Of a DNA stretch of 64,000 nucleotides, positions 23,835 through 59,800 are shown one piece after another. A program made the position numbers and the translations under genes. How positions within the stretch are numbered: position 1 is the first letter of the stretch; the number at the start of each line of letters is the position of its first letter. Location: NCBI RefSeq assembly GCF_009914755.1, contig NC_060927.1. One strand, given 5' to 3'. The DNA is from the human T2T-CHM13v2.0 reference genome, Homo sapiens. Under the pieces are notes generated by a model. It was not told the origin of the DNA and did not search any database. It saw only the letters and a list, made by a program, of their open reading frames with translations.

Positions 23835-24150
23835 GGCCCAGGTGTGGTGGCTCATGACTGTGATCTTAGCACTTTGAGGGCTAAGGCGGGAGGATCGCTT
23901 GAGTTCAGGAGTTCGAGACCAGCCTGGGCAACATGGTGAAACCTTATCTCTACAAAAAAAAAAAAAAGACAAAAATTAGCTCGGCATGGTGGTGTGTGCC
24001 TGTGGTCCCAGGTGCTCTGGAGACTGAGGTAGGGGGATCACCTGAGCCTGGGGAGGTGAAGGCTGCAGTGACCAGTGATTGTACCGCTACACTCCAGCCT
24101 GGGCGACAGTGAGACCCTGTATAGATCAGTTAATAGATAGATAGAAAGAA
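23835..24150 (+). mobile_element. AluJ with (ATAG)n/(GAAA)n tail
   Basis: ggaggatcgcttgag / ggctgcagtga J-type features. Confidence 0.9.
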
Positions 24151-24689
24151 AGAATTCATTGTTAACAGCATATAGTATTTGAAAGCAAGTGCTGTATTAA
24201 GAGAATAAAAGGAAGCATTGGTAATTGAAGGTAAATTGATGCCTTTGTAACAATAACTTGGCAGTTCTGCAAAGCTAAATGTTTTTTATAGCCAGTCATG
24301 AGTAGACTGCAAAATTTCGAGAGTTCAGTCTTGGCAATCTGCAAATGAATCTGCATGACATTTGATTTCAAACAATCTTTCCTTTGAAGCTACCAGGAGT
24401 TTCTTTCAAGCATACTTCCAGCCATTGGTGCTCCCATCCTCCTTGACTCAAATAGGCACAAATATGACCATTCATTTTTCCTTTACTTTCCCCAGAAATG
24501 TGATTGTTTTCACTGCTCTTTTACTGTTTTCCTCTTAAGATAAATCTAGTAATGATTTCATAAGATGACCATAATGCAGAATGTTTTCCTCAATATCTGC
24601 CTTAGTGTAATGTAATTCTGATGCAGAATGATGGCAAAGTTTTAATTAGCAACATTTAAGCTATAAGAAATAACCAATTGACCTTGGCA

Positions 24690-25620
24690 ATTATTCCATT
24701 TATTTGTTCAACAAATATTATATTAAGCACTTATTATGTGCTACAAGTTTTGCTACATGGTGGAGATGATTAGCAAGACACAGTCCTTATCATCTAAGGA
24801 CTTGCAGTCGAGTGAAGTGACAAATAGGTGCCCTAAAATATAATAGGTATTCTTCTAGAAATCAGAATTCAGTGAAGACCCAAAAGAAGTAGTGGTCAGG
24901 TCTAAGGTAGGGATGTTGAGAATGGAGAATAATAGAGCAAGCTGGAAAGGATTCATAGAAAAGGCAATATTGAACTGAATCCTTTAAAAAAAAAAGAGAG
25001 AGACGGGGAAAGAAAGGCAAGAAATACCATTAATAAAGTAGAGTCTTTGTAGGCTTTTTCAATGTAAAAGAGATCTGAAGAGGTCAGAGAGGACCCTGAT
25101 GAGACTGCCTTAAATGACTTGCTGAAAAGTTCGACCTCTAACCTGTGATGGGCATTAAGAAGGGTGGCCATATGACCAAATTGACATTCTGGAAAGCAAG
25201 ATGTGTAAAAGGCCCATTAGAAGATTATTATACCGGTCCAGAAGAGAGATGATAATGACCAAACCAAGACAATGAAGAGGAGAAGTCAAATGTGAGATTT
25301 TATGATTGCAAAATCTGTAGGATATGGTGAATGCTGGAAGGGTATAGTGAACTACTGAGTTCCTCTCAGTGAGAGGGCATCTCTGGGTACAGCCAGGTTG
25401 GGGAGAAATGAATTTTCTTGGCCTTGTAGATCAGGAGCTTAGGATGAGTCTGGGCTAGAGACAATGCTTTGGAGCTTGGCAGCCTCTGGTAGTGGTTGAA
25501 GCTATGGGAATGGGTGAGATTGCCCAGGAAGGCTTGTAGGGTAAGAAGGAAATGGGCTGAAGGCAGAGCTGTGAAGGTCACAAATACGTAAGGGGTATGC
25601 AAGGGGAGAGGAATGGCAGG
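24690..25620 (-). mobile_element. L2 LINE fragment
   Basis: ttccatttatttgttcaacaaatatt...aagcacttattatgtgc L2 3' terminus followed by purine-rich degenerate body. Confidence 0.65.
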
Positions 25621-27196
25621 AACAGGCTGTCAGTTGTCTAGCAAATGAATTGTATGTGTTGGGTGGAGGGGTAGATGTGAGTGAAATAATGCAGATTGCC
25701 ACTGTTGATAGGACTAACAAAGCTCCAGTTCCACCATACCACCAAGGTACCAGTGAGTATTTTATGGGAGAAAAACTGAAATTACCCCATTCAGTAGGGG
25801 AGGTAATTTTCAAGGCTTTTAATTTCCTGCTAAGTTGCTAAATCACAAGAGATTGTTTTAAAGGATACTCTTCCCTCTTTCCTTATTTGGAAGAAATTCT
25901 GTAGGCAGAAAGTTATTCTCAGAGCCCTGGGCTGTGAGAACCTCCTTTAACCATTCATCACAACAGCTCTGAGTAAATGAGATATATTTTTATGGCCAAG
26001 GAGTCCAAAGAGCCACTGACTGGGTAACAATTAATTAAGCTAGTAACTGACCTCCTTTATCTCTGAGTGGCCTCTATTCCAACCCTTTTTATTTAGAGAC
26101 CTGAAATGCTTCATACTATTGGATGGCACATTCTATAACTCTTACTGGGGTCTCCTCCTGGAAGTGGCCATGCTGAACTGGACACATCTGAGTAATCCAT
26201 GGAAAGTTCCATGGGTTCTCCTTTTTGCATGGGTCCTATTTTCTGGGATAGGTATATCCATACCTTCCTAACCAACAGGGGACGGGGTAGAACCAGGGCT
26301 GTGGGAACTCCCTAAGTGTCAAATGGAATTTTCAAGAGATGACCCTAATCTTTTTCCAATTGTTTTATCAAGGTGTCTGTACTAGGATAAGGAATTCCTA
26401 GTCTCTGTTCCTAAACTTTGTTCCAAATGGTTACGTGGTTGCAGTTCTCCGGGAATTGACCTTTAGAAGGAAGACACTAAAACATCAGAATGTGAGAGAA
26501 ATGCACTGTTACTCCTCCATTATTTTGTCTCAATCCCATAGTTCCAAGGAAGGAGCTTTATTCCTAGGAAGAAACTTTATTCTTACACATTTAGGCATCC
26601 AGCTTTGTCTGCTAAGTCCTCCTTCCCCCTGACCACAGAAGACTTCATGGTAAATCAAGCCCACTGCTCTCACAAGCTTTTCTTAACTTGGTCTGGTTAA
26701 AACATAGCTTCATGCAAATAGTATCAACATTGCTTTTAGCTTAGCAGGGCTTTCCATTGGGGCCAGTCATAATGACAGTTGTATGACAGTAAAAAACCAA
26801 TGCCATAGCAGTTTCTAAACAGTAGTACTTGTTGAGAGGAGATGTTTTTCCTCTATCAAGAACTTTCCTCTGGGGCCTGTTTATATGTCTGTGCACATGC
26901 ATGCAACGGGTGATAGAAAAGAAACAACTTTTCATGTGGGATAGTGTTACTTCTGAGAGGAGGAATTTTGCCAATTAAATGTTTGTAGGGATTCATTTTA
27001 GAGTTTCTATCCTTTGCCCAAGTATGTGTTTTCTGCTTAATAGGAAATGAGCCTTGTTTAATTTAGTAAAACAGAACATCATTTCTTTAGGAAAGTGAGG
27101 GATCCTTTTCCCTTTGAACTTAAGTGTTACACATTGGAACATCAGACCAGTTGTTTAAAATACTTGAGTACCATAACACCTGTCCTTCTGTTACAG

Positions 27197-32543: not shown

Positions 32544-32669
32544 GTCTTATCATTTCTCTGCAGCTTCTTCGTGGAGACATGGAACAGATTCGGAGAGAAA
32601 ATCCCATGATATTTAATAGGGGATTGGCAATTACAAGAAAATTGGGATTTCCTGATGTCATTATGCCAG
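32544..32669 (+). CDS. DOCK3: DOCK3 coding exon B (126 nt)
   Basis: tttgtttttgcag|GT CTT ATC...ATG CCA G|gtatgc; (G)LIISLQLLRGDMEQIRRENPMIFNRGLAITRKLGFPDVIMP; DOCK-A/B family motif RKLGFPDVIMPG. Confidence 0.96.
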
Positions 32670-33535
32670 GTATGCAGAACTGCTTGGGGCTGGGAAGGAA
32701 GATGGGTTAGGATGGAATCTGGTGCTCCCCTCCTGAGCAGGTGGTGAACTGTGCTATGGAGAAGACCTGCAGCTATTAAAATCTCCCACATCCCAAGTCA
32801 GGCTGCTTACTGCAGTCTGCAGTCAATGGCCCTTTGGCTCTTATAGGCATTTGTTCTTTTCCAGAAGCCCCTACATTACATTCACCAGTGCAACATGACA
32901 ATCCAGCAGATAGGCTTTGTTGTCTTCCATGAAGTAGAAGTGATGGTAGAAGTGAATATGGAACCTTCATGGAGAGTTTTTATACTCTACTATCCTATCA
33001 CATTTCTTAGAATATAATTGTCTCACAAGAACTTACTGCTTAAGGGGAAGAATATATCAAAATATATGCCTGTAGTATCAGTGAATCCCATATGTGTAGG
33101 AATAGCAGATACATTTCCATTTTCATGTATCAGAAAAATAGATCAGGCAAATAGTATAAATTAGACATTGTGAATATACCACTACCTGGCCAGCTTCTCA
33201 GGAATTGTATCACCCATTTCATCTAATGCCCCGTGGAGAGCCAGGGCAGAAATTGGGAATGCATTGACCCTCAACTGTGGTCCCAGTAGGTCAGTATCAG
33301 GTTCTTGTTTTCTAATTAGGCAGACATGGGTAGGGCTGGAAAAGTGGATCCAAATGGGATATCAGAGCCAAGGGGGCTATCAGGAGTGAAGAAAGGGTAG
33401 AGGCATGGTTCAGATGGATGTTAGGTGTCCTGATAAGCAGAGAAGATGCAAATAAGGAAAAGGAGATTAGAATGGGTAAATGTCTGGTTATCTGGATAGA
33501 TTCTAGGAGGAGTGGACCTACCCTCTCAGTTGAGT

Positions 33536-33852
33536 TTTTTTGTTGTTTTGAGACAGTCTTACTCTGTTGCCCACGCTGGAGTGCAGTGGTGCCATCTTGG
33601 CTCACTGCAAACTCCACCCACTAGGTGCAAGCAATTCTCTTGCCTCAGCCTCCCGAGTAGCTGCGACTACACGTGTACATCACCACACCTGGCTAATTTT
33701 TGTAATTTTTGTAGAGACGGTTTCACCATGTTGGCCAGACTGGTCTCGAACTCCTGACCTCAAGTGATCCAGTACTGGCATACTGGTCTTGAACTCCTGA
33801 CCTCAGCCTCCCAAAGTGCTGGGATTACAGGCTTGAGCCACTGCGCCTGGCC
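33536..33852 (-). mobile_element. AluS with internal duplication
   Basis: Antisense Alu; TSD TCAGTTGAGTTTT on both sides. Confidence 0.92.
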
Positions 33853-36257
33853 TCAGTTGAGTTTTAATGCTTTGCTAAAAGCTTATTTGCTTTTGTTGTA
33901 AAGGGCCAGGCCAGACCAGGCTAGACTGAACTGATTGTGATCACTTTAAATATCACTTATTTGGAGTTCTTCATGGTGGTTCACTGAATTCTCTTGTTGG
34001 AAGCATTTGCCAGCACATACACAAAGAGTTGGGTAGCTTGGGCATAGAGAAGGCCTATGTGGTGGGTTCCAGCTGCCTTCCAACTTTCCAGGCTATGCCC
34101 AGATTTATTTTCTGTCACCTTCATTCTCTCTCCATAGACACTGTAAATGCAGAGCAAGCTGCTACACACAGCCTTCGTCTTCTACTCATACACACAGGAG
34201 AGTCTTTTGGATGGGAAATGTAGGCTAGTAGATCAGTTATGTTTTTCTCTAAATGCTAGGGAGACTTCATGCTTATGAAAGCTGTTGTAGGGGTAATGAC
34301 TGCCACAGGACACTTCTACCATCCTGTCATGACACCTTTCTTAGCTCTTTCTGGGCTGGTAATTAGGAAAAGAGCCCAAGCATAGTCAGGCTTCTTGACT
34401 ATGAAAAAAAAAAAAAGTTACCAAAATTGAAAAAAGAATAAATAGTTACCAAAATTGACCTGGTGATCTTTTAAAAATTAGGTATCTAGGCTTATGTGGT
34501 GGAGTATATTCCAAGGGATATACTTAAAGTCCTTCCTTTCTCTTGAGAACTTTTCTGAGATTTGGATACTACCTTCGTGATAGTCTTCACATACTTCTGG
34601 GATTAAAACCAAGTGATCAGAGACTAGAAAGGAACAAGCTTCAGTCAAAAATGTATTTAAGCAAAATTTGATTTTAAGTTACATTGTCAAAACCTCATCT
34701 GTGGAAAGAAATCTTTTTTAGGATACTCTGCATCTCTTCATATCATTGGCACACAGCTAGACATGACTCTGGAAATATGTAATTTCAAGCATTGGTGAGG
34801 CAAGCTGAGGTTAAGGGGGTTTTCCCTCCTCCGGGCAGCTAAGGGATCATCATATGATTTTCCCCACAAGGCAGAGATACTGGGCAGTCCTGGCAGGCCC
34901 AGGGTGGGGCTGTGAGCCTGCCTTTGAAGTACTGAGTGCTGTAGCCGAAAGTAAGGACTGGTTCATAGGCAGAGCAGTCCTTTTGCATAATCTGCCCCCT
35001 CTTCCACCCATTCTCTTCCTGAGAAAAGAGCTTTTGCACAGGTGGCCACTCCCAGGGTTGTGGGCTGTTAGCAACTTGCATTTCCCCCTTAATATGCCCC
35101 AATATACTGTCAAGAGTAGGTTTGCAGTCCCTGGGCAAAGTGATAGGACTGTACCTGCAGGTCCTATTGGATCAACAGGAAAAGTGTGCAGGAGTGTTTT
35201 ACATTGTGGTCAGCCTGTCTTGGGAAACAGTGACTGTGTTAAGAAGTCCTTAGGAGTCTTTTTCAAACCCTGGGCACATCTCTACCTGCAGCTAGTCCAC
35301 CCATCATCTGTGAGAGTGTTTTACTTGAATTGTAGCAGTCCCTCAGCTCTCACAGTGCTGGTGTGACCAAGTTACAAGAAATTGCAACTTCATCTTCTTG
35401 ACCCATGAACACGTGGAGATATAAGAAGGAAGGAAATCATGTCAGTAACTGTGACCATGATAGCATGATAAGTCTGAGAAATTAAATGGAAAAATTAGAA
35501 GTATTCATAAACTGTGATCCTTATTTTAAAACTATCCAGCATTTGGCAGAAACTATCAAACACTCATTTGGAAAGGTTTTTTTTTTTGGTCAGGATGGCC
35601 CAGATAGGTCCTTGTCAAAGCATACTGGCAGAGCTGTAAGGGAGAGTTCAGACAGGCTCTAGCCACACCAGTAGCTAACATATGATTTCTAAAAAGATCT
35701 TTTTGACATTCTACCATTGCTTTCCATGAGAGTGTACATACATATCACAGGGATGATGTGAGCATGAGATATTCTGCTCTGCCATAACTGAGGCCATGAC
35801 TACACAGCCATTCAGTTCTGCTCATGACCCATGATAATGAGCAAGAGGCAACAGTGATACTGCTGGTGTTCTGGGAGCCAAACCAGGAAGTACCATCTTA
35901 GATTATAGAAGAACAAATAGATATGAGAAATTTAGCCATTTTTTAAAAAACTGAACATGTAACCTTTTGTTAGTTGATCACCATATTTCAGTGGATACTT
36001 TCTCTTTCCTTCCAAACTCATTTTATTAAAGTACAAAAGCTAATAATAACTCTATGGCACACTTTTAGTCCTTTTCTTGATTTTTTTTAAGAAGATGGGC
36101 AGGCACGACAAACAGGCCAGGTGTTCCAGGTAAACAAATGGATGTTAACATTGTTTTCTGTAACTCCTGTGTCAGAATTAGCTATAATAAAACTTTAAAG
36201 AAAACCGTTAGCCAAAAGAGTATAACCTGAAAGGAATGATTTAAAACCTCTAGGTCA

Positions 36258-36559
<302 letters not shown>

Positions 36560-36573
36560 AAAACCTCTTGCTC

Positions 36574-36878
36574 GGTCAGGCACAGTGGCTCACGCCTATA
36601 ATCCTAGCACTTTGGGAGGCCGAGGCAGGTGGATCACCTGAGGCCAGACGTTCAAGACCAGCCTGGCCAATATGGTGAGACCCCATCTCTAAAAAAAATG
36701 CAAAAATTAGCCGGGCATGGTGGCGTTCACCTGTAGTCTCAGATATTCAGGAGGCTGAGGCATGAGAATTGCTTAAACTCGGGAGGTAAAAGTTGCAGTG
36801 AGCCAAGATCATACCACTGCACTCCAGCCTGTGTGACAGAGCAGAATCTGTCTCAAAACCAAAACCAAACCAAAACAA
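36574..36878 (+). mobile_element. AluS, tandem with the previous Alu
   Basis: Complete Alu; TSD AAAACCTCTTGCTC. Confidence 0.95.
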
Positions 36879-37203
36879 AAAACCTCTTGCTCAAGAAGGG
36901 ACCGTACCCTTCTTCAGACCATGTCTAAGCCAGCAGAGATGTGCTACCACTTGCCATGGCTCTCTTTCTTTGCTTTCCTGGAAAGTCTGTACCCTGTAGT
37001 CAGTGGAAATAAAGGGCTTTGTCGTGGTTTTTTGGGAAGTACAATGTTTTAACCTATTTTCTAAGACTTGAATTTCTAAGGTTATCATTGATTGTAGGTG
37101 ATATGAGCCAAATTACATATTAAATGGTTTTCTGTCTTGTCATAAGAAGTCCATCTATGATTTATTATGTTGTTCTAATAGATGACTAAGTTTTTTTCCT
37201 AAA

Positions 37204-37388: not shown

Positions 37389-37693
37389 TCATAGAGAGTA
37401 CTCTGCTTATGGATGTTTTTCTCCTTCTTGATTCCCTTTACTCAATTACTGCTCCCCTTTGGACATATCTATTAGAAGGCAGCTATATAGGCATAGCATC
37501 CTTTTAGAGGACCCTCTGACTCTTCCCCTTGTGCTCAGAAACACACTCTGTCCTTTTCTTTGACTCCTGACAAAAATGTGCATGTTTCATCACTGACCTT
37601 CAAGTGATGTTTCTTTCTTTTCGTGTTTGTCTTAATTGTTCTTGTTTTTCTCTGTGCTGTCCCTTCATTTTCGCCCCTTTCTTTCTGACGCAG

Positions 37694-37711
37694 AGATGAA
37701 GATAGTTGGGT
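37694..37711 (+). CDS. DOCK3: Candidate alternative 18-nt DOCK3 microexon (G replaced by EMKIVGC)
   Basis: About 87-nt AG-free pyrimidine tract, ctgacgcag|AGATGAAGATAGTTGGGT|gtaagt; phase 1/1, no stop in the DOCK3 frame; predicted from sequence only. Confidence 0.6.
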
Positions 37712-38795
37712 GTAAGTTCTGTCTTTTGTGTGCTCTGTCTGCTTATTGCCTGCTTTGTTCTCATCTTCATTTGTTTCATGGAATGTTGCAATACTGGGGT
37801 GGGGTATCATGTACATATTAATAATCCTCATCAGCCTCACCTTCTTGGGTAACTGACAAGACATAAAAAGAAAAGCTACCAGCCCATCCTATAACACTGT
37901 GTATTACTTTTGAGTATTCACTAAGATCTGAAGAAACTGGAGACATATTGGAATGTCTAGAAAATCTTAACAAGCTTAAGGTGTATAGATACAGGAAACT
38001 ATTTTTGTATGAGACTGATCAGTTGCATTCATTGAAAAGAAAAGGAATCGTGCTTACTCCAAGCCAAAAGAATCAGAAAGGTGGAAAGCTTCTCTTTTTG
38101 GCTTTGTGGGACATACTTCACATGAAAAGGCAAACCAACAGAGATATGGTTTTTGGAAGAAAGCTTTCCTCAAGGGGAGCAATGACATTATTTACCACAA
38201 GTGGGTTCATAGCGCTGGTCAATCTGAGTGTCAAATGAGGCTATGGCAGTGTATCTAAGGGATGGTTTAAGAATAATCACATCTAGTCTCAAAAGAGGTT
38301 GGAAGATCATCACATCCCTGACTCAAGAAAGGACAAACTATCTATAGTGATGTCACACTATGCCCATACCTCTCATCCTGTTAGAGCAAAGAGCATCACT
38401 GACTTTGTTGCAATGGAAACCAGAAGTGTGACACCAAAGACATGGTAAGAAGAAGAAAGAATCCTTCTTTCCTGGGTACTCTAAAGAAGTCCTCTCAAGA
38501 GCCTTTTTTTTTCTTTTGGTCTCTTCCTCAAGTAAATAAGAACTACTCCATTGGTTGCATACCTAAAACCATCCAAGTTGAATGGTAGCTAACATCTCTA
38601 CATTTCCATGTATGCTGTTAGGAGACATCCTTCTATTCTTCCAACACATAGGCTTGGCATCATCCCAATTGTACTGAAAGAAAGTCAGTTCTCATCTTAC
38701 ATGATCTTAAGGAAGAGAAAGCACATCTGTAGAAACCCCTCCTAATCCTATCTAGAAGTAGACAAGGTATAAATAATATAGTATTAAATATTATT

Positions 38796-39236
<441 letters not shown>

Positions 39237-44070: not shown

Positions 44071-44195
44071 GTGATATCCGCAATGACCTGTACCTAACCC
44101 TGGAGAAGGGGGATTTCGAGAGAGGAGGAAAGAGTGTACAAAAGAATATTGAAGTGACCATGTATGTGCTTTATGCAGATGGAGAAATCTTGAAG
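44071..44195 (+). CDS. DOCK3: DOCK3 coding exon C (125 nt), start of DHR-1/C2 domain
   Basis: tttctttccccgcag|GT GAT ATC...TTG AAG|gtaagg; (G)DIRNDLYLTLEKGDFERGGKSVQKNIEVTMYVLYADGEILK. Confidence 0.96.
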
Positions 44196-56012: not shown

Positions 56013-56513
56013 GTAAGTTCCATTTGGTATCATCATTAGGACTCGTGTTTGAGTAGAAATATAGGCTTTAAAAAAGTTTAGCTGCAACCAGCATTTAAAA
56101 AGTTCAGCTGACTTTTTAAAAATTTTATATTTTTAATTGTGATAAAATACACATAACACAAAATTGACCATCTTAACCATTTTCTGAGTGTAGGGTTCAG
56201 TGACTTTAAGTACATTCACATCATTGTACAACCATCACCAGAACTCTGTCCATCTCCAAAACTCTTTTCCTGTTACAAAACTGAAATATTGTAATCATTA
56301 AAAATAACTCCCCATTCTCCCCTCCCCTATCCCCTGGCACCCACCATTCTATTCTACTTTCTGTCTCTATGAATTTGACTACTTTAGGTACCTCATGTAA
56401 GTGTAATCACAATATTTGTCCTTTTGTGAGTAGCTTATTTCACTCAGCATAATGTCTTCAAGGCTCATCCATGTTTTAGCATGGGTCAGAATTTCATTCC
56501 TTTCAAAGACTGA

Positions 56514-56863
<350 letters not shown>

Positions 56864-56874
56864 GGGTTTTTTTG

Positions 56875-59800
56875 TTTGTTTTTTAATTTTATTTTAAGTT
56901 CAGGGGTACATGTGCAGGTTTGTTATATAGGTAAATTTGTGTCATGGAGGTTTGTTGTATAGATTATTTCATCACCTAGGTATTAAGCCTAGTACCCATT
57001 AGTTATTTTTCCTGATCCTCTCCGTCCTCCTACCCTCTACCCTCCGATAGGCCTCGGTGTGTTTTGTTCCCCTCTATGTGTCCATGCATTCTCGTCATGT
57101 AGCTCCCACTTATAAGTGAGAACATGTGGTATTTGGTTTTCTGTTGCTGTGTTAGTTTGCTAAGAATAATGGTCTCCAGCTTCATCCATGTTTCTGCAAA
57201 AGACATGATCTCATTCTTTTTTATGGCTGCATAGTATTCCATGGTATATATGTACCACATTTTCTTTATCCAGTCTACCATTGATAGGCATTTAGCTTGA
57301 TTCCATGTCTTTGCCATTGTGAACAGTGCTGCAATGAACCTATGCAAGCATGTGTCTTTATGGTAGAACAATTTATATTACTTTGGGTTTATATACAGTA
57401 TTGGGATTGCTGGGTCAAATGGTAGTTCTGTTTTTACGTCTTTGAGAAATTGCCACACCGCTTTCCACAATGGTTGAACTAATTTACACTACCATCAACA
57501 GTATATAAGCATTCATTTTTCTCTGCAACCTTGCCAGCATCTGTTATTTTTTGACATTTTAATCATAGCCATTCTGGCCGGTGCAGGATGGTATCTTGTA
57601 CCCCAAAGATAAAGCGTACTTTTTATTTATTTATTTATTTATTTATTTAGAGACAGAGTCTCACTCTGTCACCTAGGATGGAGTAGAGTGGCGCAATCTT
57701 GGCTCACTGTAACCTGCGCCTCCTGGGTTCAAGCGATCCTTCTGCCTCAGCCTCCTGAGTAGCTGGGACTACAGGCATATGCCACCACACCTGGCTAATT
57801 TTTGTATTTTGAGTAGAGACGGGGTTTCACCATGTTGGCCAGGCTGGTCTCCATCTCCTGACCTGCCTCGGCCTCCCAAAGTGCTGGGATTACAGGTGTA
57901 AGCCACTGTGCCCAGCCACTGGCCTCATTTCTTTGTGCATTTGGTACAATTTGGCTGTGAATCTGTCTGGTCCTGGGTTTTTTTTTTGTTTGTTTGTTTT
58001 TTGTTTTTTTTGTTTTTTTTTAGTTGGTAGGCTGTTACTGACTCAAGTTCACAGTTTATTATTGGTCTGTTTGGGGATTCCATTTCTTCTTGGTTCACTC
58101 TTGGGAGAGTGTTTGTGTCCATGAATTTATTTATTTCTTCTAGATTTTTTAGTTTATGTGCATAAAGATGTTCATAATATTCTCTGATGGTTATTTGTAT
58201 TTCTGTGGGGTCAAAGGGAATATCCCCCTTTTCATTTCTGATTGTATTTATTAGAATATTCTCTTTTTTCTTCTTTATTAGTCTAGCTAGCAGTCTATTA
58301 ATTGTTTTCAAAAAATCATCCCGGATTCATTGATCTTTTGAATGGTTTTTTGTGTCTCAATCTCCTTTGGTTCAATTCTGATTTTGGTTATTTCATGTCT
58401 TCTGCTAGTTTAGGAATTGGTTTGCTCTTAGTTCTCTAGTTCTTTTAGTTGTGATGTTAGGCTGTTAAATTGAGATCTTTCTAACTTTTTGATTTGGGCA
58501 TTCAGTGCTATAAATTTCCCTCTTAACAATGCCTTACCTGTGTCCCAGAGATTCTGGTATGCTGTATCTTTATTCTAATTAGTTTCAAAGAACTTGTTGA
58601 TTTCTGCCTTAATTTCATTATTTACCCAGAAGTTATTCAGGAGCAAGTTATTGCATTTCCATGTAATTTTATGGTTTTCAGTGAATTTCTTAGTCTTGAT
58701 TTCTAATTTGATTGTGCTGTGGTCTGAGAGAGTATGATTTCAGTGATTTTGCTGAGGAGTGTTTTGTGTCCCAATTATGTGGTCAATTTTAGACTATGTG
58801 CCATGTGGCAATGAGACAAATGTATGTTCTCTTGCTTTTGAGTGGAGTGTTCTGTAGATGTCTATCAGGTCCATTTGATCTAGTGCTGAGTTAGGTCCTG
58901 ATATCTTTGTTAATTTTCTGTCTTGATGATCTGTCTAATACTGTCAGTGTGGTGTTGAAGTCTCCCTCTATTATTGTGTAGGAGTCTTAAGTCTCTTTGA
59001 AGGTCTCTAAGAACTTCCTTTATGAATCTAGGTGCTCCTGTGTTGGGTGCATATATACTTAAGAGAGTTAGGTCTTCTTGTTGAACTCTTCAACATTATG
59101 TAATACCCTTCTTTGTCTTTTGCAGTCTTTGTTGGTTTGAAATCTGTTTTGTTTGAAATCAGGATTGCAACCCCTACTATTTTTCTGTTTTCCATTTGCT
59201 GGGTAGATTTTTCTCCATCCCTTTATTTTGAGCCTATCTGTGTCACTGCATGTGAGATGGGTCTCTTTGAAGACAGCTTATGAATGGGTCTTGGTTCTTT
59301 ATCCAGCTTGCCACTCTATGCCTTTTAATTGGGAAATTTTATCCATTTATATTCAAAGTTAGTATTGATATGTGTGGATTTGATCCTGTTATGATGTTAG
59401 CTGGTTATTTTGCAGACTTGTTTATGTAGTTGCTTTATAATGTCACTGGTCTGTGTACTTGTGTGTTTTTGTCATGGCTGGTATTGGTCTTTTCTTTGCG
59501 TATTTTGTGCTTCCTTCGGGAGCTCTTGTAAGGCAGGTCTGGTGGTAACAAATTCCTTCAGCATTTGGTTGTCTGAAAAGGATCTTATTTCTCCTTCGCT
59601 TATGAAGCTTAGTTTGGCTGGATATGAAATTATTTATTGGAATTTCTTTTCTTTAAGAATGTTGAATATTGGCCCCCAGTCTCTTCTTGCTTGTTTCTAC
59701 TGAGAGATCCACTTTTAGTCTCATGAGCTTCCCTTTGTAGGTGACCTGATCCTTCTCTCTAAATGCCTTTAACATTTTTTCTTTCATTTTGACCTTGGAG

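What the first reader, a model, noticed from the sequence alone, without database searches (positions are those of the whole stretch)
37560..37790. Candidate in-frame 18-nt neural-type microexon at the N-terminal edge of the DOCK3 DHR-1 domain
Seen: an island of unique sequence in the 11.4-kb intron between exons B and C has a full alternative-exon architecture. There is no AG from 37605 to 37691 (about 87 nt, strongly CU/U-rich). Branch-point-like CTGAC lies at 37593-37597 and CTTAAT at 37631-37636, with an RBFOX TGCATG at 37579-37584. The acceptor is ctgacgcag, the exon is AGATGAAGATAGTTGGGT (37694-37711), and the donor GTAAGT (37712-37717) is a perfect +1 to +6 match, followed by UG/YGCY-rich sequence. 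Both flanking exons are phase 1, so inclusion gives CCA G|AG ATG AAG ATA GTT GGG T|GT GAT: ...VIMP-EMKIVGC-DIRNDLY in place of ...VIMP-G-DIRNDLY (net +6 aa, no stop). Established: frame-preserving 3-27 nt exons with long AG-exclusion zones and PTBP/RBFOX/SRRM4 control are the neural microexon class, and DOCK3 is neuron-enriched. Inference: a regulated switch next to the phospholipid-binding C2 domain. It is absent from the canonical protein as I recall it, but may be present in predicted isoforms. No UGC lies immediately before the acceptor, so SRRM4 dependence is uncertain.
Basis: partly seen in the sequence, partly recalled or inferred. Interest (0 to 1): 0.85.

Follow-up and report, generated by a model that had tools for sequence, protein, structure and literature searches.

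The report
Conserved 18-nt DOCK3 coding microexon
This is a genuine 18-base coding mini-exon of the DOCK3 gene, kept almost unchanged from lampreys to humans and present in gene models of many animals, yet missing from the human RefSeq models supplied with the window.

Summary
The sequence features are all present at the stated coordinates. Window 37694-37711 is AG|AGATGAAGATAGTTGGGT|GTAAGT. It follows an 87-nt AG-free, pyrimidine-rich tract and is in frame, replacing Gly with EMKIVGC.

Architecture alone is not decisive: 2 such units occur on the window's + strand. Orthologues settle it. Of 128 fetched vertebrate DOCK3 proteins carrying both flanking motifs, 25 have this insertion between ...DVIMP and DIRNDLY:
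- EMKIVGC in rat, cattle, jaguar, deer mouse, birds, coelacanth and shark.
- EMKIAGC or EVKIVEC in teleosts.
- EKKIVGC in hagfishes and a lamprey.

A chimpanzee model starts MKIVGC|DIRNDLY.

The insert lies in the 12-residue linker between DOCK_N and the DOCK-C2 (DHR-1) domain. It interrupts a PG-D hinge found in 47 of 55 diverse DOCK relatives, none of which has this insert. Human DOCK4, DOCK1, DOCK2 and DOCK5 have no counterpart.

Tissue specificity and regulators could not be tested. The upstream CU-rich tract is extreme, and the RBFOX site is not above background.

Verdict: a real, ancient alternative microexon, recorded for other species but absent from the 30 human RefSeq transcripts in the hub table. 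Its function is unstudied in the searchable literature.

The parts
37694..37711 (+). 18-nt alternative coding microexon of DOCK3 (T2T chr3:51249694-51249711). Its inclusion changes ...VIMP-G-DIRNDLY to ...VIMP-EMKIVGC-DIRNDLY.
   Evidence: Sequence and frame. The identical or near-identical peptide sits at the same junction in 25 of 128 vertebrate DOCK3 proteins that carry both flanks.
37605..37693 (+). AG-exclusion zone and polypyrimidine tract ending in the acceptor cAG. It is dense in UCUU/CUCU/UUCU motifs and is a candidate PTBP-binding repressor region (inferred).
   Evidence: 87 nt AG-free; 75% pyrimidine; 12 PTB-type motifs (0.04% of background windows reach this); Y(-20..-5) = 0.88, equal to the best annotated exons.
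37712..37717 (+). 5' splice site GTAAGT (exon end GGT|gtaagt).
   Evidence: 6 of 9 matches to CAG|GTAAGT. The nine annotated exons score 5-8.
37593..37597 (+). Candidate distal branch point CTGAC, about 97 nt upstream of the acceptor (inferred only).
   Evidence: It lies just upstream of the start of the AG-free zone. Branch-point use was not tested.
37649..37659 (+). UCUCUGUGCUG: the only UGC upstream of the acceptor (-39), adjacent to a UCUCU (-45). It is a possible SRSF11/SRRM4-type enhancer (inferred; the motif rule is recalled).
   Evidence: positions. No perturbation data.
37731..37754 (+). Downstream cluster of four YGCY/UGC motifs at +20 to +43. It is a candidate intronic enhancer (MBNL-type or other; inferred).
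   Evidence: 4 YGCY (1.4% of background windows reach this) and 5 UGC (2%) in the first 100 nt downstream.
32544..32669 (+). Upstream constitutive exon (ends ...GTCATTATGCCAG, phase 1).
   Evidence: Hub gene table.
44071..44195 (+). Downstream constitutive exon, the first exon of the DOCK-C2 domain (starts GT GAT ATC CGC = DIR...).
   Evidence: Hub gene table.

Best explanation
Window 37694-37711 is a bona fide, ancient, alternatively spliced 18-nt coding microexon of DOCK3.

Shown:
- Its splice sites are intact and comparable to those of the neighbouring constitutive exons.
- It is in frame.
- The peptide it encodes is the same as an insertion at exactly this junction in DOCK3 gene models from mammals, birds, coelacanth, shark, teleosts, hagfishes and a lamprey.
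- Forms with and without the insert both exist, and both occur in chimpanzee models.
- Inclusion replaces one Gly with EMKIVGC in the short linker between the DOCK_N module and the first strand of the lipid-binding DOCK-C2 (DHR-1) domain. This breaks a PG-D hinge that is almost universal in DOCK1-5-type proteins.

Inferred:
- The long AG-free, CU-rich upstream tract with a distal branch point keeps the exon skipped where PTBP1 is high. Inclusion occurs in differentiated DOCK3-expressing cells, most likely neurons, helped by downstream UGC/YGCY elements and perhaps SRRM4 or SRRM3.
- The six extra residues lengthen or loosen the hinge. This would tune how the N-terminal regulatory module and the C2 domain are oriented, and so tune membrane recruitment or partner binding of this Rac GEF.
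For: - Sequence, frame and coordinates.
- Single-copy, non-repeat sequence.
- It is the only unit with good architecture among 346 in-frame AG..GT units in the 11.7-kb stretch (the intron plus flanking exon sequence).
- Splice sites are as good as those of the nine annotated exons, with an AG-free zone about three times longer.
- Of 128 DOCK3 proteins with both flanks, 25 carry the insert: EMKIVGC 18, EMKIAGC 3, EKKIVGC 3, EVKIVEC 1. The species-specific variants show that each is read from its own genome.
- The models appear to come from different annotation sources, judged from the record names (NCBI isoform X models; a UniRef entry for Eptatretus; chimpanzee 'DOCK3 isoform 3', P0083, which starts MKIVGC|DIRNDLY).
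- Chimpanzee 'isoform 2' (P0115) has the canonical junction, so both forms occur in one species.
- Across the window's 354 coding residues, this insert is the only indel between human and rat X1, cattle X8, a bird and a shark.
- The insert is at residues 418-424 of rat X1, between DOCK_N (70-412) and DOCK-C2 (425-613).
- PG directly precedes the first C2 strand in 47 of 55 diverse DOCK representatives, and 0 of 55 carry this insert.
- In a confident model (mean pLDDT 87.3) the insert is low-confidence coil (residues 31-39, pLDDT <50) just before strand 43-49.
- The upstream CU-motif density is extreme.
Against: - No RNA-seq, junction or proteomic data could be consulted, so human inclusion, its level and its tissue are unproven.
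- None of the 30 human RefSeq transcripts in the hub's table contains the exon. Human use may therefore be low or restricted.
- Predicted isoforms in other species may be partly propagated by cross-species protein alignment. They prove genomic conservation more firmly than transcription.
- No GCAUG lies downstream, and no UGC lies within 38 nt of the acceptor. RBFOX or classical SRRM4 control is therefore not indicated.
- The folded protein lacks DOCK_N, so the low confidence at the insert may reflect the missing neighbouring domain.
- The functional hinge idea is untested.
Confidence: 0.85

Rival explanations
1. The exon is conserved and used in other vertebrates, but in human it is included only at trace level or in a very restricted cell type. 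It would then be functionally marginal in human, which would explain its absence from human RefSeq.
For: The hub table lists 30 human RefSeq transcripts and none has an exon at 37694-37711. Rat alone has five listed isoform clusters with it. No short human fragment with the insert was found. No searchable paper mentions it.
Against: The human sequence keeps both splice sites, the frame and the exact peptide EMKIVGC seen from shark to cattle. A chimpanzee model uses its donor and reading frame. Clustering at 90% identity hides human isoforms in the protein searches, so their absence there says nothing.
Confidence: 0.2
2. The stretch is the 3' end of an alternative first exon from an internal promoter. 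It would give an N-terminally truncated DOCK3 that starts at the ATG inside the 18 nt, as in chimpanzee 'isoform 3'.
For: P0083 (1339 aa) begins MKIVGC|DIRNDLY, using the ATG at 37696-37698.
Against: Twenty-five full or long models have the peptide internally, with the upstream exon joined (VIMP-E...), so the acceptor at 37693 is used. The first residue E needs the G of the upstream exon. The flank is a polypyrimidine tract, not promoter-like. P0083 is most simply a 5'-truncated model with its ORF called from the first ATG.
Confidence: 0.04
3. It is a chance pseudo-exon: splice-like motifs in intronic sequence that are never used.
For: Similar AG..GTAAGT units behind long AG-free tracts arise by chance at about 1-2 per 128 kb scanned.
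Against: The peptide is identical to an insertion at the same junction in 18 orthologous clusters, with close variants in 7 more down to cyclostomes. A chance match of 6-7 residues at one defined junction is negligible.
Confidence: 0.01
4. It acts mainly as a poison exon through the second AG (16-nt form starting at 37696), lowering DOCK3 output by NMD.
For: AGAG at the acceptor offers a second AG 2 nt downstream. The 16-nt form shifts the frame and gives a TGA at the start of exon C (read).
Against: The first AG has the favoured C at -3, while the second has G at -3 and lies behind it (sequence). All 25 models use the 18-nt frame. The peptide is under strong coding constraint.
Confidence: 0.03

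Closest known systems
The same exon in orthologous DOCK3 models, for example rat isoforms X1, X3, X4, X5 and X7, cattle X8, Anser cygnoides X15, Latimeria X2, Mustelus X1, Anguilla X6/X7 and Lampetra fluviatilis X3 (names as listed)
   Same: The insertion sits at the identical junction (VIMP|...|DIRNDLY), with the identical or near-identical peptide and the same 6-residue net length.
   Different: Those are predicted protein records of other species. The human RefSeq set in the hub table (30 transcripts) has no such exon. I saw no expression or functional data for any of them.
Vertebrate DOCK3/DOCK4 microexon in the catalytic DHR-2 domain (bioRxiv 10.64898/2026.09.05.749416; one passage read)
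   Same: The same gene, and a neural-specific microexon. The preprint describes it as convergent with an 18-nt microexon of fly spg.
   Different: That exon lies in DHR-2, is shared with DOCK4 and is reported to affect GRB2 binding. The present exon lies between DOCK_N and DHR-1 and has no counterpart in human DOCK4.
27-nt DOCK3 micro-exon at chr3:51370431-51370458 (hg19) in Li et al. 2015, Genome Res, PMC4317164 (supplementary file 3, one row seen)
   Same: A short alternative exon of DOCK3, listed in a brain micro-exon study.
   Different: It has a different length and position, and lies outside this window. The 18-nt exon did not appear in the files that could be searched; file 1 was not searched.
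The vertebrate neural microexon programme: 3-27 nt, frame-preserving, conserved, SRRM4/PTBP1-regulated (Irimia et al. 2014; recalled, paper not held)
   Same: The length, frame preservation, deep conservation, position in a surface linker next to a domain, strong splice sites and a host gene that is neuron-enriched (the last point is recalled).
   Different: Neural-specific inclusion and SRRM4 dependence were not tested. The only UGC is 39 nt upstream.

Membership tests
Conserved vertebrate coding microexon (cassette, 3-27 nt) | Length of 3-27 nt, bounded by AG and GT | tested here: met
   18 nt, cAG|...|GTAAGT
Conserved vertebrate coding microexon (cassette, 3-27 nt) | Preserves the reading frame with no stop | tested here: met
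   Phase 1 on both sides. The translation reads ...VIMPEMKIVGCDIRNDLY... with 0 stops.
Conserved vertebrate coding microexon (cassette, 3-27 nt) | Orthologous exon conserved across vertebrates | tested here: met
   Of 128 DOCK3 proteins with both flanks, 25 carry it, from mammals to hagfish and lamprey. E, K, I and C are invariant in 25 of 25.
Conserved vertebrate coding microexon (cassette, 3-27 nt) | Alternative: both inclusion and skipping forms exist | tested here: met
   103 proteins have the canonical junction and 25 have the insert. Chimpanzee has both kinds of model, P0115 and P0083.
Conserved vertebrate coding microexon (cassette, 3-27 nt) | Inclusion observed in human transcripts | not testable with these tools
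   No RNA-seq or EST resource was available. The exon is absent from the 30 human RefSeq transcripts in the hub table.
SRRM4/SRRM3 (eMIC)-dependent neural microexons | UGC-containing enhancer close upstream of the 3' splice site (rule recalled) | tested here: inconclusive
   There is a single UGC at -39, next to a UCUCU at -45, and none nearer. UGC count in the upstream 100 nt is not above background.
SRRM4/SRRM3 (eMIC)-dependent neural microexons | Neural-specific inclusion and response to SRRM4 perturbation | not testable with these tools
   No expression data were available. The literature searches found nothing on this exon.
PTBP1-repressed exons | Dense CU-rich (UCUU/CUCU) tracts in the upstream intron (rule recalled) | tested here: met
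   12 motifs in the upstream 100 nt. 0.04% of 2749 background windows reach this.
PTBP1-repressed exons | Derepression when PTBP1 is lost | not testable with these tools
   No perturbation data were available.
RBFOX-activated exons | (U)GCAUG in the downstream intron within about 200 nt (rule recalled) | tested here: not met
   0 GCAUG in +1..+200. The only one is upstream at -114, and about 10% of background windows have at least one.
Known DOCK3/DOCK4 DHR-2 microexon | Lies within the DHR-2 domain and is shared with DOCK4 | tested here: not met
   The insert is at residues 418-424, between DOCK_N and DOCK-C2. No counterpart was found in the human DOCK4 intron.

The most novel reading that the evidence does not exclude
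A DOCK3-specific microexon, present in both jawless and jawed vertebrates, rewrites the otherwise near-invariant PG-D hinge between the N-terminal ELMO-binding/regulatory module and the PIP3-binding C2 domain. It would act as a cell-type-specific switch of Rac-GEF membrane engagement. Because it is missing from the human reference models used in diagnostics, pathogenic variants in it or at its splice sites in DOCK3-related neurodevelopmental disorder would currently be read as deep-intronic.
Probability: 0.25. Interest if true: 0.6.

Novelty: already known. Interest (0 to 1): 0.4.

Why it matters
DOCK3 is a neuron-enriched Rac GEF, and biallelic variants in it cause a neurodevelopmental disorder (stated in passages of PMC12424998).

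A coding exon conserved across vertebrates, from lamprey and hagfishes to human, is almost certainly functional. Yet it is absent from the human RefSeq transcript set given with the window. Variants at T2T chr3:51249692-51249717 would therefore be classed as deep-intronic. Isoform-specific biology at the DOCK_N/C2 hinge is also overlooked.

The practical gains would be adding the exon to the human models and measuring its tissue profile. Conceptually it is one more member of a well-known class, not a new mechanism.

Tried and rejected
- blastn of the candidate and of the whole intron against the equivalent introns of human DOCK4, DOCK1, DOCK2 and DOCK5 gave only short chance hits and shared interspersed repeats.
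- A peptide and architecture scan of those introns found no counterpart. The best peptide score was 13, against 38 for self. 0 of 414, 153, 68 and 181 units passed the architecture filter.
- The first AlphaFold run used an alignment of DOCK3 proteins only. It had mean pLDDT 62.5 with residues 15-173 mostly below 50 (segments 15-65, 70-123, 127-173), so I discarded it. The second run used a more diverse alignment and is the one cited.
- An RNA fold of 37580-37760 showed no unusual structure: z = -0.73, and 53 of 200 shuffles folded at least as well.
- The bacterial-type promoter/terminator scan is irrelevant to a human intron. It only flagged a 7-bp hairpin at 37588-37609, within chance expectation.
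- The search for short protein fragments carrying the insert listed 120, of which 57 were newly fetched. 0 of these 57 have it.
- Literature main-text searches found no paper on this exon: 'DOCK3'+'microexon' (3 papers), 'Dock3'+'SRRM4' (2, both irrelevant), 'DOCK3'+'micro-exon' (0), 'DOCK3'+'VastDB' (0) and 'DOCK3'+'cassette exon'+'neuron' (4).
- One search was badly posed (any 2 of 6 terms) and listed no Dock3 paper.
- Supplements:
  - MicroExonator (PMC7821500): 0 'Dock3' in 7 files.
  - Head 2021 (PMC7935315): only expression rows in the files searched; files 13-18 were not searched.
  - Li 2015: a different 27-nt exon; file 1 was not searched.
  - Weyn-Vanhentenryck 2018 (PMC5989265): three Dock3 cassette entries, none resolvable to this exon; file 13 was not searched.
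- Irimia 2014 and Juan-Mateu 2023 are not held.
- Paper reading closed. The supplements of PMC12868881 and the text of PMC12143990 (DOCK3 mentioned 3 times) were therefore not seen. bioRxiv supplements are closed. Any of these may list the exon.
- The search of earlier findings was not open.
- MaxEntScan and SpliceAI scores, phyloP, and nucleotide alignments with other vertebrate genomes could not be computed, because only the human genome was held.
Full report
**1. Observation**

- The acceptor ...ttctttctgacgcAG ends at 37693.
- The exon AGATGAAGATAGTTGGGT runs from 37694 to 37711.
- The donor GTAAGT is at 37712-37717.
- The nearest upstream AG is at 37603, which leaves an 87-nt AG-free zone.
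- CTGAC is at 37593, TTAAT at 37632 and TGCATG at 37579.

Both flanking annotated exons, 32544-32669 and 44071-44195, are phase 1. Joining exon B, the 18 nt and exon C in the annotated frame gives ...GFPDVIMPEMKIVGCDIRNDLYLTLEK... with no stop. One Gly is replaced by EMKIVGC, a net gain of six residues.

Two small corrections apply. One UGC does lie upstream, at -39 (37655), directly after a UCUCU at -45. A second CTGAC sits at 37685, too close to the AG to serve as a branch point.

**2. Is the architecture more than chance?**

By architecture alone the answer is only moderately yes.
- The + strand has 8 GTAAGT motifs and 14 AG..GTAAGT units of 3-27 nt. Two of the 14 follow an AG-free zone of >=80 nt with >=70% pyrimidine: this one and a 9-nt unit at 56388-56396.
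- The - strand has 13 such units, and none passes even AG-free >=40 nt.

Other measures are more striking.
- The upstream 100 nt is 75% pyrimidine; 0.3% of 2749 intronic 100-nt background windows reach this.
- It carries 12 UCUU/CUCU/UUCU motifs, which 0.04% of windows reach.
- The downstream 100 nt has 4 YGCY (1.4%) and 5 UGC (2%) motifs.
- AG-free gaps of >=87 nt number 16 of 4593 in the window.
- Compared with the nine annotated exons, the candidate's acceptor pyrimidine content (0.88) equals the best. Its donor matches 6 of 9 consensus positions, against a range of 5-8. Its AG-free zone is 87 nt, against 19-32 nt.
- The 161 nt around it are single-copy in the genome.
- In an 11.7-kb stretch spanning the 11.4-kb intron and its flanking exons, it is the only one of 346 in-frame, stop-free AG..GT units of 6-30 nt that passes the architecture filter.

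**3. Decisive evidence: orthologues**

The large protein database turned out to hold vertebrate DOCK3 models. I ran three searches.
- A search with the exon-C peptide listed 120 of 506 hits. One of them, chimpanzee 'DOCK3 isoform 3' (P0083, 1339 aa), begins MKIVGC|DIRNDLY.
- A search with the first 40 residues of P0083 among proteins of 736-2344 aa listed 120 of 742 hits. A top block matched over the full 40 residues.
- A search among proteins under 736 aa added no further insert-bearing protein.

Of all 243 proteins fetched by these searches, 128 carry both flanking motifs. Of these 128:
- 103 have the canonical ...VIMP-G-DIRNDLY.
- 25 have a 7-residue replacement.

The 25 divide as follows.
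- EMKIVGC, 18 clusters: rat isoforms X1, X3, X4, X5 and X7; jaguar; Peromyscus maniculatus; cattle X8, a cluster of 223 members; several birds; Latimeria; the shark Mustelus.
- EMKIAGC, 3 clusters, in Anguilla.
- EVKIVEC, 1 cluster, in Megalops.
- EKKIVGC, 3 clusters: the hagfishes Eptatretus and Myxine, and Lampetra fluviatilis X3.

E, K, I and C are invariant in all 25.

The lineage-specific variants show that each model is read from its own genome. Judged from the record names, the records come from more than one annotation source.

Across the window's 354 coding residues, this insert is the only indel between human and rat X1, cattle X8, a bird and a shark.

The human 18 nt is therefore the orthologue of a coding microexon found in both jawless and jawed vertebrates. 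It keeps the exact peptide and both splice sites.

One caveat applies. Predicted isoforms may be partly propagated by cross-species protein evidence. They prove genomic conservation more firmly than transcription in each species.

**4. Alternative, not constitutive; specific to DOCK3**

Both forms occur across species. In chimpanzee, P0115 has the canonical junction and P0083 has the insert.

Human DOCK4, DOCK1, DOCK2 and DOCK5 were located by protein search of the genome and their equivalent introns were fetched. They show no nucleotide homology beyond shared repeats. None has a unit with a similar peptide or a good architecture.

An exhaustive profile-free search of 1.84 billion representatives listed 150 of 3328 hits, 147 of them new. 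Of the 147 new proteins, 55 contain the first C2 strand motif.
- 47 of the 55 have PG directly before it.
- 0 of the 55 have a DOCK3-type insert.
- One (P0279) has an unrelated 11-residue insertion.

**5. Position in the protein**

In rat isoform X1 (P0128), Pfam places DOCK_N at 70-412 and DOCK-C2 at 425-613. The insert occupies 418-424. It therefore sits in a 12-residue linker and converts the near-universal MPG-D hinge into MPEMKIVGC-D.

Solved relatives exist for DOCK5, DOCK2 and the DOCK1 DHR-1 domain (3l4c, aligned from the first C2 residue). No DOCK3 or DOCK4 chain appeared in the list.

The only insert-bearing protein short enough to fold is Latimeria P0136 (895 aa), which lacks DOCK_N.
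- With a DOCK3-only alignment, the C2 region was unusable: mean pLDDT 62.5, with residues 15-173 mostly below 50.
- With a diverse alignment, the model was confident: mean pLDDT 87.3 and pTM 0.73. The insert (residues 31-39) was low-confidence coil immediately before strand 43-49.

This fits a flexible surface linker. The missing neighbouring domain limits the inference.

**6. Mechanism**

Shown: it is a cassette microexon whose inclusion adds six residues at the DOCK_N/C2 hinge.

Inferred: the long AG-free CU-rich tract, with a distal branch point such as the CTGAC at 37593, is the signature recalled for PTBP-repressed, differentiation-activated exons.
- The downstream UGC/YGCY cluster (37731-37754) and the UCUCUGUGCUG element (37649-37659) are candidate enhancers.
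- The single upstream GCAUG is not above background, and there is none downstream, so RBFOX activation is not indicated.
- The 16-nt variant through the second AG would create a TGA at the start of exon C. It uses a gAG behind a cAG and is not used by any model.

My estimates:

| Claim | Probability |
|---|---|
| Real conserved coding microexon | about 0.95 |
| Inclusion enriched in neurons | about 0.6 |
| PTBP repression | about 0.5 |
| Hinge-tuning function | about 0.3 |

**7. What is known**

The exon is already in public protein records of many species. For that reason I rate it 'already known' rather than new.

It is not among the 30 human RefSeq transcripts in the hub's table. No paper in the searchable library discusses it.

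The DOCK3 microexons I could find in print are different exons.
- One lies in DHR-2 and is shared with DOCK4 (preprint passage).
- One is a 27-nt exon at hg19 chr3:51370431-51370458 (Li 2015 supplement).

A mouse supplement lists three Dock3 cassette entries, one of them 'novel' (CA-sr-chr9r-1120). I could not map that entry.

Several likely sources could not be consulted.
- Irimia 2014 and Juan-Mateu 2023 are not held.
- Some supplement files were not searched.
- Paper reading closed.

Whether human resources already list the exon therefore stays open.

**8. Verdict**

This is a genuine, ancient, DOCK3-specific alternative microexon at the edge of the DHR-1 domain. Its 'neural-type' regulation and its function remain untested.

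The value lies in the gap in human annotation for a disease gene, and in a clean, testable hinge-insertion hypothesis. It does not lie in a new kind of element.

Noticed in passing
window 56388-56396 (+): A 9-nt AG|GTACCTCAT|GTAAGT unit follows a 144-nt AG-free, 72% pyrimidine tract. It lies inside a stretch the hub table lists as repeat-masked (56291-57025). It is the only other unit in the window that passes the architecture filter.
   Followed up: no
window 37588-37609 (+): A 7-bp hairpin, CATCACT...AGTGATG, has the candidate branch-point CTGAC at its stem/loop edge. It is within chance expectation, and the 181-nt region folds no better than shuffles.
   Followed up: partly
proteins P0001-P0043 and similar: Dozens of short ORFs from metagenome sources (lgn, jgi, ena) encode the DOCK3 exon-C peptide preceded by varied intron read-through. 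They look like vertebrate host DNA in metagenome assemblies, from many species.
   Followed up: no
P0145 (Lampetra fluviatilis DOCK3 X3), residues about 593-599: The lamprey protein has a further 6-residue insertion (SGGTVG) inside the C2 domain relative to human.
   Followed up: no
P0279 (unnamed DOCK-family representative): It carries an unrelated 11-residue insertion (KTWLTGMSPPG) at the same PG-D hinge. This could be intron read-through, a misprediction or an independent insertion at the same site.
   Followed up: no
window 33535-33860, 36255-36880 and 38780-39110 (approximate; intron offsets): Several copies of a roughly 300-nt interspersed repeat are shared, at 75-86% identity, with the equivalent DOCK4 intron in both orientations. 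They look like Alu elements (name recalled, not tested).
   Followed up: no
PMC5989265, supplementary file 11 (mouse Dock3): A 'novel' coding Dock3 cassette exon, CA-sr-chr9r-1120, is listed with inclusion falling from about 0.23 to about 0.02 across the first columns of its row (column headers not seen). I could not map it, so it may or may not be this microexon.
   Followed up: partly
window 24127-26491: The hub table lists a 2.4-kb exon used only by non-selected DOCK3 transcripts. It is presumably an alternative terminal exon giving a short isoform. I did not examine it.
   Followed up: no
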